Assembly: GCF_009914755.1 (NCBI RefSeq) | Contig: NC_060929.1 | Source of the DNA: the human T2T-CHM13v2.0 reference genome, Homo sapiens | DNA: 64,000 bases | Strand: one strand, 5' to 3' | Part shown: positions 53,865 to 63,591 of the stretch, piece by piece | Layout: each line of letters begins with the position of its first letter | How positions within the stretch are numbered: position 1 is the first letter of the stretch | Program-made: the position numbers and the translations under genes | The notes under the pieces: generated by a model | What the model was told of the DNA's origin: nothing | The model's input: only the letters and a program-made list of their open reading frames with translations | The model's database searches: none

Positions 53865-56204
53865 TACATTCACCTTCTATAACCTTTTTCAGTGAGTCAT
53901 TAGAAGGACTCGCAATAGAATCCTTAGTTATTGAAGGTTACGAGATAAACCTTCCTGCTTTAAAATGGTTCAGTGTTCTTTACATATGAGTTGACTCTGG
54001 GATGTTTTCCAAATCTTGCATGTAAAATTTCCTCGTTCAATTTTCTATTAATAAAGACACTTTTCTCTTACACCATTCCTTTTTTATATTTGTATGATAA
54101 TGCTTTTTTATGTAAATTGACTATTTTCAGAACACTTAATATGATTCTGCTCTTATTTGAAAATTATTTCAAGGAGACTGTTATGTAATAATGATCTATA
54201 ATGTGCAAGGTTTTAACTGCAGATATATGTCTAGCAGTATAGAACTCTAGTGTGAGTTCTGTTAAAATTGGAGCTCCATTATAACAGCCACAAGTCAGTT
54301 ATGATGGAGCTACACAGGTCTTCACTAATACTGTTATATATTAAGCGGTCTGAATCCTGCTGCACTAATGTGGAGAATAGAAAATAAGTTGATAGAAGCC
54401 CAATTTAAATTCAACAACTAATAAAGACAGGATACAATTTTAGTACTGAAAATATTTTCAAATGTGATATGTGAAAAGCCTACTACTCTGCAACTCATTT
54501 ACATAAAAGTGAATGATATGTTAGGAGTTTAAGCCATGAGTTTAGCAACTTTTGTGGCAGATAACTTAGGTGAAATTGATAATGCTTTCATTTTCTTATT
54601 GTGTAAAAACTGGTAGCTTAGTTCTTTAAAAGTAAAAATAGTAAAACATAATAAATACATATTTACTACCAACTTGACTATTTTAGAAAAAAATAATTTT
54701 TATTAAAAATATAAATAAATAGCAAATTGAGTTAAGGAATTTTCTACAACTTTAAATTCGTATCTCCAATCTAGTAAGTGTGAAACAGTATACAAATATT
54801 TCTTTGACACAAGTATTTTTATTGATTTTCTAATTGAAAATTCATCAATAAGAAATACTAAATATCACTAATTTTATTTTTAATCACAAAATTATGTTAT
54901 ATTTACATAATAAATTATTCACATATCCACAAATAAACAGACATAACACACACACACAAAAATAAATTCAAAGTTTATAAGCATGTATGCAGCAGAAATT
55001 TTTATTGCTTATGTTCAATCAATAGGTAAGTCAATTGACTGAGGTTTTCCAGTTCCTGGGGAAAGTATAATGATACATAGTCATAGAATAGTGAACAATT
55101 TTTTAGTTTTTATATTTCTACTGATTAACTTGCTTTTTTCTAAAAAAAGTTTATTCCACTTGTGTTTAATATTCTTAATTGAAAGTTGTTTTATTTGTAT
55201 GTAATTATATAACTGAACTGAGCATTATATAAATACTTAAATATAATACCAAAGTAGAGTTCCATTTTTATGAAAATAGTCACATCTTTCCCAGTAGGAC
55301 TTTTGCTTCCTTTTGAAAATAAAGTTAGATCTATCTCTTACTCTCCATAGGGAAAGATAGACAGCTCTTCAGTAGCTTCATATAAGATCAGAGTCTTCTA
55401 AATTTGAACTCCTCTCCATTTCATGTGCAGGTACCATAACTAAGAAAGTAATTTTTAAAAAAAATGTCAATCAGCAAAAGTATGTTCCCTTGCTTTTTAA
55501 CACCATGACTAATGATGGGCTTCCTGTTTTGGCAGTAGTTATACCTTTAGAGTAGTGAATGCCTCCCTACCACCCACAATGGAGATTGTCATGATTTCTC
55601 TTAGCAAGTTTTCCCAGTGTGAAATAAACCATCTATCATATTTCATTTTTTTTGTCATCACCCTAAATAAATGTTCTCTGGCTATTGCTGTGATGACCAC
55701 AGGTTACTTTTGGTTAAGAATTCAATTGGGCCTGAATACCTACAATTATAACATGAAGAAGTTAAACCAGAAAATGTCTAATGTCTTTTCTGACATTGAA
55801 ATATTGGGGATGCCAGTGAACAAACAAAATAGATTTATTTTTATATTACAGCTTTGACTCCAATACAGAAAAATGCTAAGGGCTTTTATATCTTTGGGGT
55901 AAATTTATAACATCATGTAACAAATCAAAATCATGGAGATATGAGGCATGGATTTCCTACAGTTATAAGCCATTAATCGGGGCAGGAGTAGCCTAGAAAT
56001 TAATTGAAATAGTGCTTGAAAAATGTGATGGTTAATGAATAGAAGACAGATGGATCCTGGAGAATGACAGTGGATTATCATAAGCTTAACCAAGTGGTGA
56101 CTCCAATTGCAGCTGCTATACCAGATGTGGTTTAATTGCTTGAGAAAATTAACACATCTCCTGGTACCTGGTATGCAACTATTGATCATTCAAGTGCTTT
56201 TTTC

Positions 56205-61018: not shown

Positions 61019-63591
61019 AAGTGCTTTTTTCAACAATCCTGTCTAAAAGGCTCACCAGAAGCAGTCTGCCTTCATCTGGAAAAACCAGCAATACATCTTT
61101 AGAGCCCTATCTCAGTGGTATATCAGTTCTTCAGCCCTCTAACAATTTAGTTCACAGGGATCTTGAGTATCTTTTCATTCCACAAGATATCATATTGGTC
61201 CATTACACTGATGACATTATGCTGATTAGAACTAATGAGTATGAAGTTGCAACTACTTTAAACTTATTGGTAAGATATTTGCATGTTGGAGGATGGGAAA
61301 TGAACTTGACTAAAATTCAGGGTCCTTCTACCTCAGTGAAGTTTCTAGGACGCTACTGGTGTAGGGCATGTTGAAATATTCTTTCTAAACTGAAGGATAA
61401 GTTGTTGCATCTGACCCCTCCTACAACCAAGAAAAAGGCACAACACCTAGGGACCTGTTTGGATTTTGAAAGGAGCAGACTCTTCATTTGGATGTGTTGC
61501 TCTGGCACATCTACCAAGTGAACCAAAAAGCTGCTAGTTTTGAGTGAGGCCTAGACCAGGAGAAGAATTGCAACAGGTCTTAGGCTGTTGTGAAAGCTGC
61601 TTTGCAACCTGGGCATTATGATCCAGTTGCCCTAATGGTACTTGGATGCTGTTTGGAGCCTTTGGCAGGTCCATATATGTAAATCACAGTAGAGATCTTC
61701 CTTTGAGATTTTGGAGAAAGGCCCTGTCATTATCTGCACGTAACTGCTCACCTTTTAAGAAATAGATTTTATTCTGCTACTAGATCTTAGTAGAAGCTGA
61801 AGGCTTGACCATGGGCCACGAATTTACTGTGATTCTTGTACTTCCCATCATGAACTGGATGTTACCTGACCCACTAAGTTGTAAAGTTGGGTGCACACAT
61901 CAGCACTCCATCATCAAATGGAAGGGGTATACAAGTGATCCAACCTGAGCAGATCCTAAAGGTATGAGTAACTTAAATGAAGAAGTGGCCCAAATGCCCA
62001 TGGTTTCTACTCCTGCTATGCTGCCTTCTCTCTCAGCCTACACCTATGGCAGTATGAAGCATACCCTCTGATCAGTTCACAAAGGAAGAAAAGACTGGGG
62101 CCTGGTTTAGAGATGGTTCTAAACTATATGCAGGCACCACTCAAAAGTGGACAGCTATAGCGCTACAGCCCCTTTCATAGATGTCCCTGGACAGTAGTAA
62201 GGTAAAATCTTCTCAATGGGAAGAACTTGGTAGGGGGGCACCTGGTTGTGCACCTGGGAGGAGAAATGACTAGGTGTATGATTACATTATCTACTGATGG
62301 GCTGTGGCCAATGGTTTGGTTGGATGCTTAGGGACTTGGAAAGGCATGATTTGAAAATTGGTGACAAAAAATTGGAGGAAGAAGTATGCAGATAGATCTC
62401 TCTGAGTGGGCAAAGGATGTAAATATTATTCATGTCCCATGTGAATGCTCACTAAAGATTGACCTCAGCAAAGAAAGACTTTAATAATCAGGTAGATAGG
62501 ATGATCTATCCCGTGCTTCTGTGGATACTAGTCAGCCTCTTTCCCTAGCTAATTCTGTCATCACCAAATTAGCTCATGAACAATGTGGCCACAGTGGCAG
62601 GGATGAGTGTTATGAATGGGCTCACCAACATGGACTTCCACTCACCAAGGTTGACCAGGCCATGACCACCACTGAGTTCCCAATCTGCCAGCAGCAGAAA
62701 CCAACACTGAACCCCCCAGTATGGCACAATCTTCCTGGGGTGATCAACCAGCTACCTGGTGGTGGATTTATCCCATAGGATCACTTCCATCATGGAATAG
62801 GGCAATTTTTTTCCTTCCTGGAATAGATACTAACTCTGGATATGGATTTGCTTTCTCTGCATGCAATGTTTCTGCCAAAATTAACATTTGTAAACTCACA
62901 AAATGCCTTGTGATATTCTACACAGTGAATACCATCAGGATATTCTACACAGTGTTGCTCGTAATCAAGGAACTCACTACTTGGCCAAAGGAGTGCAGCA
63001 ATGAACTCGTGCTCACAGAATTCACTGATCTTACCATGTTCCCCATCGTCCTGAAGCAGTTGGTTTGATGAAAAGGTAGAACAGCTTTTGAAATCCCAGC
63101 TACAGTGCCAGCTAGGTGACAATAGCTAGCACTGCAGGGCTGGGACAAAGTTCTTTAGAAGGCTTCATGTGCTCTAAATCGGCTCCCGATACATAGTACT
63201 CTTTCTCCCATAACCAGGATTCAGGGGTCCAGGAATCAAGGGGTGCAATAAAAATGAAACCACTCACAATTGACCCTAGTGATGTATTAGCAAATTTTTT
63301 ATTCCCTGTTCCCACAGCTTTATATACTGCTGGCCTAGGGGTCTTACTTCGAAAGAGAGGGATGCTTCCATCAGGAGAAACAACAATGATTCCATTTAAC
63401 TGGAATGTAAGGCTGCCACTTTGCCACTTTGGGCTCCTCTGAGACAACAGGCTAAGAAAGGAATTATGGTGGTGGCTGGGGTGATTTACCTGGACTACAA
63501 AGGAAATATTGGACTATTATTCCACAATGTAGGTAAGAAATAGCATGTCTGAAATACAGAAGATCCCTTAGGGCTTGTCTTGTACTATTAT

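What the first reader, a model, noticed from the sequence alone, without database searches (positions are those of the whole stretch)
56190..61031. Circularly permuted inverted L1: twin priming plus a loop-back template switch that copies exactly up to its own primer
Seen, using the full-length L1 at 12258 as a ruler and reading in element orientation: TSD, antisense 15988>13530 (C), a jump through GAAAT microhomology (58560-58564) to antisense 16959>15992 (B), then sense 16904>poly(A) (A), TSD. B+C is one full turn of a 3.4-kb circle opened at 15989-15991. The target end TCAAG (61017-61021) matches L1 TCCAG (15987-15991) at 4/5, and B stops at the next base (15992). A and B overlap by 56 bp as an inverted duplication. 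Known: ordinary twin priming gives a single inversion junction. Inference: the internally primed RT ran 2.5 kb, jumped 3' on the same RNA and filled the gap until blocked by its own priming site; alternatively it copied a non-canonical circular L1 RNA (the junction lacks GT/AG). Nothing between 13530 and the tail is lost.
Basis: partly seen in the sequence, partly recalled or inferred. Interest (0 to 1): 0.85.

Follow-up and report, generated by a model that had tools for sequence, protein, structure and literature searches.

The report
Three-piece inverted L1 insertion
This is one old, dead L1 retrotransposon copy whose three pieces were stitched together in a scrambled order during a single insertion, a rare but already described by-product of how L1 copies itself.

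Summary
Window 56190-61031 is one L1 insertion. It has a perfect 14-15 bp target-site duplication, a single poly(A) tail and three L1 pieces (A, B and C).

Measured against the full-length L1 at 12258-18294, the pieces cover 13530 to the tail with no loss. C is 13530-15991 and B is 15992-16959; both are inverted relative to A. A runs from 16900/16904 to the tail. A and B share a 56-60 nt inverted duplication.

Junctions carry microhomology: 4 of 5 bases at target/C, 5 nt (GAAAT) at C/B, and 3 nt or a 1-nt filler at B/A. Both internal junctions are unique in the genome. The three pieces show similar private divergence (1.6-2.5%).

Twin priming was followed by a template switch of the internally primed cDNA into the uncopied RNA gap, and copying ended at that cDNA's own primer footprint. 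The circular-RNA alternative is unsupported.

The architecture is already in print:
- "twin priming and 5' switching", 20 instances among 3,598 tumour L1 insertions
- a three-piece GREM1 retrocopy in an L1-expressing cell clone

This is therefore a clean, old germline example of a known rare variant, not a new mechanism. A second, messier example turned up by chance among 36 comparison copies.

The parts
56190..56204 (.). Left copy of the target-site duplication, TCAAGTGCTTTTTT(C). The 15th base could belong to the tail instead.
   Evidence: perfect direct repeat of 61017-61031; the 14-mer occurs only twice in the window
56204..56226 (-). Poly(A) tail of the element. It reads AAAAAAAGAAAAGAAAAGAAAAG on the minus strand.
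56227..57599 (-). Piece A: sense 3' part of L1, ruler 16900/16904 to the 3' end (L1 position about 4643-6027). This is the product of the primary, poly(A)-primed cDNA.
   Evidence: 96.9% over 1388 nt; 97.0-97.5% to 17 other copies
57596..57599 (.). A/B junction. Either one unassigned A at 57596, or a 3-nt overlap CAT at 57597-57599 with a mismatch at 57596.
57597..58564 (+). Piece B: ruler 15992-16959 (L1 position 3735-4702), inverted relative to A. This is the second leg of the internally primed cDNA.
   Evidence: (96.0% over 968 nt)
57540..57599 (.). Left arm of the 60-nt inverted duplication (ruler 16900-16959, copied once in A).
   Evidence: 57 of 60 complementary to 58505-58564
58505..58564 (.). 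Right arm of the 60-nt inverted duplication (ruler 16900-16959, copied again in B).
58560..58564 (.). GAAAT microhomology at the template-switch junction. It is shared by ruler 16955-16959 and 13530-13534.
   Evidence: P about 0.007 for 5 or more nt at a random junction
58560..61016 (+). Piece C: ruler 13530-15986 (L1 position 1273-3729), inverted relative to A. This is the first leg of the internally primed cDNA.
   Evidence: (97.2% over 2463 nt, the match running on into the duplication)
61017..61031 (.). Right copy of the target-site duplication. Its first five bases, TCAAG, match L1 TCCAG (ruler 15987-15991) at 4 of 5 and are the inferred internal primer footprint.

Best explanation
This is one endonuclease-dependent L1 insertion on the minus strand, made by twin priming plus one template switch.

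Shown:
- A single 14-15 bp target-site duplication, one poly(A) tail and a T-rich nick site.
- Three L1 pieces that tile ruler 13530 to the tail.
- B and C lie parallel to each other and opposite to A.
- Microhomology at the junctions.

Inferred sequence of events:
1. The plus-strand nick (TTTTTT/C) primed cDNA 1 on the poly(A) tail.
2. The other target end (...CACTTGA-3' on the minus strand) annealed inside the same L1 RNA at TCCAG (15987-15991). It primed cDNA 2, which ran 2.46 kb to 13530.
3. The 3' end of cDNA 2 (ATTTC) left the template and re-annealed at GAAAT (16955-16959). That site lies in the stretch of RNA between the two cDNAs.
4. cDNA 2 then copied 16954 down to 15992 and stopped at the base next to its own primer-RNA duplex.
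5. cDNA 1 ended at 16900/16904, so 56-60 nt were copied twice.
6. The two cDNA 3' ends were joined through a 3-nt overlap, or by end joining with one extra base.

The product was dead on arrival and has no evident function.
For: Single event:
- Perfect duplication TCAAGTGCTTTTTT(C) at both ends, one tail, and no second tail or second duplication.

Tiling:
- Three matches with the stated limits.
- The same pieces are colinear in 9 other copies that span all three.

Strand logic:
- B and C are both antisense on the minus strand, in the order C then B when read 5' to 3'. They can be one continuous cDNA primed from the right-hand target end (inference).

Microhomology:
- 4 of 5 at target/C (P about 0.022).
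- GAAAT at C/B (P about 0.007).
- CAT or a 1-nt filler at B/A.
- GAAAT pairs an L1 sense site with another L1 sense site, as expected for a cDNA end re-annealing to RNA.

Same age and family:
- Private substitutions are A 22 of 1356, B 24 of 950 and C 41 of 2434 sites.
- A against C gives P = 1.0; B against A+C gives P = 0.08.
- The two copies of the 60-nt overlap differ at 3 sites, against 2.2 expected.

Not inherited from a rearranged source and not a duplicated locus:
- The B/C 24-mer (exact) and the A/B 26-mer (up to 2 mismatches) each occur once in the 3.1-Gb genome.

Controls:
- All 5 ordinary inverted copies among the 36 comparison L1s have one inversion junction, with a 3-20 nt deletion or duplication.
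- Here the corresponding gap of about 910 nt is filled exactly by B.

Print:
- 'Twin priming and 5' switching'.
Against: - B has somewhat more private substitutions (2.5%) than A and C (1.6-1.7%), although P = 0.08.
- The 56-60 nt copied twice means one of two things. Either cDNA 1 displaced the start of leg 2, or cDNA 2 invaded RNA that was already copied. Neither is shown.
- Sequence alone cannot show that leg 2 used the same RNA molecule, or that the stop at 15992 was due to the primer duplex.
- I found no special RNA complementarity that would bring donor and acceptor together (68% of 107 control windows paired at least as well).
- No reads, other human assemblies or ape orthologues could be examined here. 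A post-insertion change is therefore argued against only by parsimony.
Confidence: 0.8

Rival explanations
1. Flip isomer. The original product was a classical zero-gap twin-primed L1. cDNA 1 ran to 15992 and stopped at the internal primer. cDNA 2 covered 15991 to 13530 and then added a short 57-60 nt templated piece (16959 to 16900) at the inversion junction. Later, recombination between the two 60-bp inverted arms flipped the 905 bp between them, giving today's order.
For: The arms exist, flank exactly the interior of B, and are complementary at 57 of 60 positions. Because the junction triplet CAT/ATG reads the same on both strands, the flipped form would be a seamless classical structure (worked out). 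Switching onto RNA that was already copied does occur, as in L030.
Against: It needs one more event than the direct model. Sixty base pairs at 95% identity is a short substrate for inverted-repeat recombination (from general knowledge, not tested here). Nothing in the arms marks an exchange.
Confidence: 0.06
2. Same twin priming and template switch, but the exact 15991/15992 boundary reflects a break in the L1 RNA, or use of a second RNA molecule. On this view the target end primed at the 3' end of the 5' RNA fragment, and leg 2 ran off the 5' end of the 3' fragment rather than being stopped by the primer duplex.
For: It predicts the same product (reasoned). End-to-end template jumping by reverse transcriptases of non-LTR elements is described in the background passages of PMC2912911.
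Against: It needs an extra unobserved event, an RNA cut at exactly the priming site. A second intact RNA would not explain the stop at 15992.
Confidence: 0.08
3. B and C were copied in one turn from a circular L1 RNA (13530-16959 closed at GAAAT), while A came from a separate linear polyadenylated L1 RNA.
For: B plus C is formally one turn of a 3.4-kb circle. Retrocopies of circular RNAs are reported (PMC4897178; only the search listing and the start of the abstract were seen).
Against: There is no GT after and no AG before any register of the junction. It needs two RNAs. The start of B within 60 nt of the end of A would be a coincidence of about 2% (my arithmetic). The junction is unique in the genome, so no recurrent circle is indicated.
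Confidence: 0.02
4. The structure is an artefact or a composite: a misassembly, two or more independent L1 insertions, or unrelated post-insertion inversions.
For: None was found. Reads could not be inspected.
Against: - A perfect duplication brackets the whole structure.
- There is only one tail.
- B ends inside ORF2 with no tail or duplication of its own.
- The pieces tile to the base.
- Every junction has microhomology.
- The three pieces have similar divergence.
Confidence: 0.02

Closest known systems
Classical twin priming of L1 (Ostertag and Kazazian 2001). The paper is not held; the model is taken from passages and from recall.
   Same: Target-site duplication around the whole insert. 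One poly(A) tail. The 5' part is inverted. There is microhomology between the second target end and an internal L1 site. Two cDNAs are joined at their 3' ends.
   Different: The classical product has one inversion junction with a small deletion or duplication. The 5 controls here show 3-20 nt, and reported medians are 14.5 and 22 bp. Here the internal primer site lies about 910 nt from the start of the sense piece, and that interval is present as an extra inverted piece.
'Twin priming and 5' switching' in tumour L1 insertions (bioRxiv 10.1101/2024.08.27.596794). Passages and section 4 part 1 were read; figures and supplements were not seen.
   Same: [quoted passage not shown] There are 20 instances among 3,598 truncated solo L1 insertions, of which 81 were unclassified.
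   Different: Those events are somatic, in tumours; this one is an old germline copy. The text calls the acceptor region 'upstream' and, without the figure, I cannot tell whether that means the gap between the two primers as here. The text read says nothing about the second leg ending at the primer.
Three-piece GREM1 retrocopy in an L1-expressing cell clone (PMC11702581, version 1). Passages and the Figure 3 legend were read.
   Same: It has three 'adjacent, but non-overlapping' pieces of one RNA. The 5' and 3' pieces are inverted relative to each other. [quoted passage not shown]
   Different: The template is a cellular mRNA, not L1, and the event was experimentally induced. Here A and B overlap by 56-60 nt. 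The 2026 version of that preprint no longer has 'GREM1' or 'tripartite' in its main text.
L030, a five-piece L1 on contig 11 of the same genome, found here by chance.
   Same: It is a single insertion with a 13-bp duplication. The internal primer site lies 17 nt from the end of the primary cDNA. The secondary cDNA (3011 to 356) is followed by a second parallel piece (2082 to 1712).
   Different: Its switch landed in RNA that the same cDNA had already copied, which gives a duplication rather than gap filling. An 85-nt piece is also displaced into the primary cDNA.
circRNA-derived pseudogenes (PMC4897178). Only the listing and the start of the abstract were seen.
   Same: The order of segments is permuted relative to the linear RNA.
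   Different: Those carry back-splice exon junctions, according to the abstract start. Here there are no splice signals, and part of the insert (A plus the tail) lies outside the putative circle.

Membership tests
[quoted passage not shown] | Target-site duplication flanking the whole insert, a 3' poly(A) tail, and a T-rich nick site | tested here: met
   Perfect 14-15 bp duplication. The tail is AAAAAAAGAAAAGAAAAGAAAAG. The nick reads TTTTTT/C on the primed strand. A TTTT/C motif is named as an endonuclease motif in a passage.
Classical twin-primed (5'-inverted) L1 | 5' part inverted relative to the tail-bearing part, with microhomology between the target end and an internal L1 site | tested here: met
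   C and B lie opposite to A. TCAAG against TCCAG matches at 4 of 5 (P about 0.022).
Classical twin-primed (5'-inverted) L1 | A single inversion junction, with the internal priming site within a few to tens of bases of the 5' end of the sense piece | tested here: not met
   There are two internal junctions. The priming site (15991) lies 909-913 nt from the start of A (16900/16904). The 5 control copies have one junction with 3-20 nt of deletion or duplication.
Twin priming with a template switch of the internally primed cDNA ('5' switching' or three-piece insertion) | Two non-colinear pieces parallel to each other and opposite to the tail-bearing piece, with the extra piece at the inversion breakpoint | tested here: met
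   In element orientation the order is C (15991 to 13530), B (16959 to 15992), A (16900/4 to the tail). This matches the text descriptions.
Twin priming with a template switch of the internally primed cDNA ('5' switching' or three-piece insertion) | Switch junction consistent with re-annealing of the nascent cDNA end to the template | tested here: met
   There is 5 nt of GAAAT shared by donor and acceptor, both in L1 sense (P about 0.007).
Twin priming with a template switch of the internally primed cDNA ('5' switching' or three-piece insertion) | All pieces derive from one RNA in one event | tested here: inconclusive
   Private divergence is similar, the tiling is exact and there is one duplication. 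A second L1 RNA of the same subfamily cannot be excluded.
Retrocopy of a circular RNA | Permutation junction at a back-splice site with canonical signals, with the insert explained by the circle alone | tested here: not met
   There is no GT/AG at any register of the GAAAT junction. A and the tail lie outside the circle.
Inversion by recombination between inverted repeats | Inverted arms flank the inverted segment, and both orientations are found among genomes | not testable with these tools
   The arms are present. No other human or ape assembly was available.

The most novel reading that the evidence does not exclude
The base-exact tiling records the kinetics of one insertion. Both reverse transcriptions and the switch took place on a single L1 RNA held at the target. 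The switching cDNA end was directed to the only RNA still single-stranded, next to the stalled front of the primary cDNA. L1 ORF2p was then halted by a mere 5-bp imperfect primer-RNA duplex.

If this holds across many complex L1s, gap filling would be a regular back-up route by which L1 completes cDNA synthesis when the primary reverse transcription stalls. Old genomic L1s could then be read as a natural record of ORF2p processivity and weak strand displacement.
Probability: 0.2. Interest if true: 0.5.

Novelty: new member of a known kind. Interest (0 to 1): 0.33.

Why it matters
The locus has no gene or known functional element nearby, according to the hub annotation given with the finding. 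The copy was defective from the start, so it has no functional weight.

Its value is as a specimen. It is an unusually long (4.8 kb) and clean germline example of twin priming plus template switching. Nothing of the RNA from 13530 to the tail is lost, and the second leg ends at the base beside the primer footprint.

That supports the idea that both cDNAs use one RNA and that the reverse transcriptase stops at a short duplex. It also shows that the rare three-piece class seen in tumours and cell clones is preserved in old genomic L1s. One further complex copy among 36 comparison copies suggests the class can be mined from complete genomes.

Tried and rejected
I used searches and fetched stretches instead.
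- Ostertag and Kazazian 2001: not held.
- One literature search failed on a term that was too short. It was repeated correctly.
- RNA pairing that might bring the switch donor (around 13530) next to the acceptor (around 16959): the duplex energy is -44.5. The mean over 107 control windows of the same L1 is -49.6, and 68% of controls pair at least as well. There is no support.
- Mismatches flanking GAAAT as a mark of error-prone switching. G at 58565 is the usual base in 8 of 9 other copies, so only G at 58559 is private. I dropped the idea.
- Fold-back of the primary cDNA: it would duplicate A's own sequence in sense, not 15992-16959. Rejected by reasoning.
- Detachment and ligation of the 3' end of cDNA 1: it explains neither GAAAT nor the 56-60 nt overlap. 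Rejected by reasoning.
- Independent nested insertions: there is no second tail or duplication.
- Papers checked that did not describe this architecture in the passages seen:
  - PMC12016303: no occurrence of the switch or double-inversion terms.
  - PMC8219666: only single internal inversions and deletions.
  - PMC12350158: L1s with multiple internal breakpoints are lumped as non-canonical.
  - PMC2912911: elements with a template switch are set aside as uncharacterised.
  - PMC13174262: switches to other RNAs only.
- Naming the subfamily: no curated L1 subfamily library was on hand, so the subfamily is not named.
- A genome-wide count of three-piece L1s was not attempted. Only 36 of the 39 non-self hits were fetched and examined.
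Full report
**What is there**

I aligned window 56000-61250 to the full-length L1 at 12258-18294, which I call the ruler. Ruler coordinates are window coordinates, and L1 position is the window coordinate minus 12257. 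The alignment gives three long matches.
- A: 56212-57599 on the minus strand matches 18284-16900 at 96.9%.
- B: 57597-58564 on the plus strand matches 15992-16959 at 96.0%.
- C: 58560-61021 on the plus strand matches 13530-15991 at 97.2%.

In L1 positions, C is 1273-3734, B is 3735-4702 and A is 4643-6027.

The permutation is a property of this element, not of the ruler. In 9 other L1 copies that span all three pieces, the pieces lie colinear in the order C, B, A.

**One insertion event**

- TCAAGTGCTTTTTT, with a possible 15th base C, stands at 56190-56203/4 and again at 61017-61030/1. The 14-mer occurs nowhere else in the window.
- Next to the left copy lies the only tail. On the minus strand it reads AAAAAAAGAAAAGAAAAGAAAAG.
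- The empty site would read TTTTTT/C at the primed nick. A passage names this kind of motif as an L1 endonuclease motif.
- B ends inside ORF2 and has no tail or duplication of its own, so nested independent insertions are excluded.

**The junctions**

- Target/C. The window reads AATGTAATCAAGTGC where the ruler reads AATGTAATCCAGCAT. TCAAG is part of the duplication, so it is target DNA. It matches L1 15987-15991 at 4 of 5 (P about 0.022 at this base composition). L1-templated C therefore ends at 61016, which is ruler 15986.
- C/B. GAAAT at 58560-58564 is shared by ruler 16955-16959 and 13530-13534 (P about 0.007 for 5 or more nt at a random junction). The G that follows mismatches the ruler, but it is the usual base in 8 of 9 other copies.
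- B/A. Either A ends at 57595 (ruler 16904) with one unassigned base, or it runs to 57599 (ruler 16900) with one mismatch and a 3-nt overlap, CAT. In both readings B reaches ruler 15992.
- A and B both contain ruler 16900-16959. They form inverted arms at 57540-57599 and 58505-58564 that are complementary at 57 of 60 positions. About 2.2 differences are expected from the element's own divergence, and 3 are seen.

**Same age, no siblings**

I compared the element with 10 to 17 other L1 copies per piece and counted substitutions private to the element.
- A: 22 of 1356 sites. B: 24 of 950. C: 41 of 2434.
- A against C gives P = 1.0. B against A plus C gives P = 0.08.

B is a little high, but there is no sign that the pieces belong to different families or ages. 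The comparison copies were chosen as the best matches to A, which biases them towards little-diverged copies.

The pooled value is 1.8%. At the hominoid substitution rates I recall, that suggests an insertion roughly ten or more million years old. This is an inference and an upper bound, because some private changes may come from the source element.

The B/C 24-mer (exact) and the A/B 26-mer (up to 2 mismatches) each occur once in the 3.1-Gb genome. So there is no rearranged source element and no duplicated locus.

**Controls**

I fetched 36 of the 39 non-self best matches to A and aligned them to the ruler.
- 30 are colinear. They are full length or 5' truncated, and two carry an insert of about 310 nt. 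For the first 16 copies, only the part from about L1 position 900 onward was fetched.
- 5 have a single inversion junction: L016 (9-nt deletion), L024 (20-nt deletion), L026 (11-nt duplication), L042 (3-nt duplication) and L044 (15-nt duplication).
- 1 is complex (L021, refetched as L030).

In the finding, the internal priming site and the start of the sense piece are about 910 nt apart. That interval is exactly what B supplies.

**Mechanism**

B and C are both antisense on the minus strand, in the order C then B when read 5' to 3'. They can therefore be one continuous cDNA primed from the right-hand target end. A is the usual cDNA primed on the tail from the left-hand end.

GAAAT links two L1 sense sites. 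That is what re-annealing of a nascent cDNA end to RNA predicts. It is not what pairing between the two cDNAs would give.

After 2.46 kb, the internally primed cDNA switched to the still-uncopied RNA between the two cDNAs and copied it down to the base beside its own primer footprint. This one idea explains both coincidences:
- B starts within 60 nt of the end of A. By my arithmetic a random start would do so about 2% of the time.
- B ends next to the start of C, at about 1 in 1,000 to 1 in 6,000.

The 56-60 nt copied twice imply that one polymerase displaced the other's product over a short distance. That step is inferred.

**Rivals**

1. Flip isomer. Recombination between the 60-bp arms would interconvert today's order with a seamless classical twin-primed L1 carrying a 57-60 nt templated filler. 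I cannot exclude that the classical form was the original, but it costs an extra event.
2. An RNA break at 15991/15992, or a second RNA. This gives the same product without a primer block.
3. A circular RNA. It lacks splice signals, needs a second linear RNA for A, and leaves the closeness of A and B unexplained.
4. Misassembly or a composite of insertions. This is contradicted by the duplication, the exact tiling and the microhomologies.

I found no special RNA pairing between donor and acceptor.

**Comparison with print**

[quoted passage not shown] It names the model 'twin priming and 5' switching'. I could not see its figure or supplements, and its word 'upstream' for the acceptor is ambiguous.
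- Version 1 of a second preprint describes a three-piece GREM1 retrocopy of 'adjacent, but non-overlapping' pieces. [quoted passage not shown] That is the same architecture. The 2026 version no longer mentions it in the main text.
- Population and method papers either lump such L1s as non-canonical or do not resolve them.
- In my five literature searches I found no description of an old germline L1 of this kind, nor of the second leg ending at the primer footprint. That absence is limited to the open-access library searched.

**Verdict**

It is a new member of a known rare class rather than a new mechanism. Interest is modest. It would rise only if a genome-wide survey showed that ending at the primer is the rule.

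Noticed in passing
L030 (G000 contig 11: 114850500-114860400), element at L030 558-6768: A second complex L1, met by chance in the comparison panel. It is one insertion with a 13-bp duplication, TCCCAGCTTTTTA, and five L1 pieces:
- antisense 6031 to 3292
- sense 2084 to 2168
- 20 unassigned bases
- antisense 3301 to 2995
- sense 1712 to 2082
- sense 356 to 3011
It looks like twin priming with the internal primer at 3011, followed by a switch of the secondary cDNA back onto RNA it had already copied. An 85-nt piece is also displaced into the primary cDNA.
   Followed up: partly
window 12000-12257 and 18437-18500: The flanks of the full-length ruler L1 themselves align, at about 87%, to the 3' region of L1. 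They fall at neighbouring L1 positions on the two sides. The full-length L1 therefore appears to have inserted into the 3' end of an older L1.
   Followed up: no
window 13161-18065: The ruler L1 is not intact. ORF1 is open (343 aa), but ORF2 is split into frames of 1007 aa and 184 aa.
   Followed up: no
L028 about 3830-4140 and L036 about 2786-3099: Two otherwise colinear comparison L1s each carry an insert of about 310 nt. The L1 coordinates overlap by 13-19 nt across the insert, which looks like a nested short element with its own duplication.
   Followed up: no
window 58559: The base just before the GAAAT switch junction is G. The ruler has A, as does the element's own second copy of that position in piece A. 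It may be a later mutation or an error made at the switch.
   Followed up: partly
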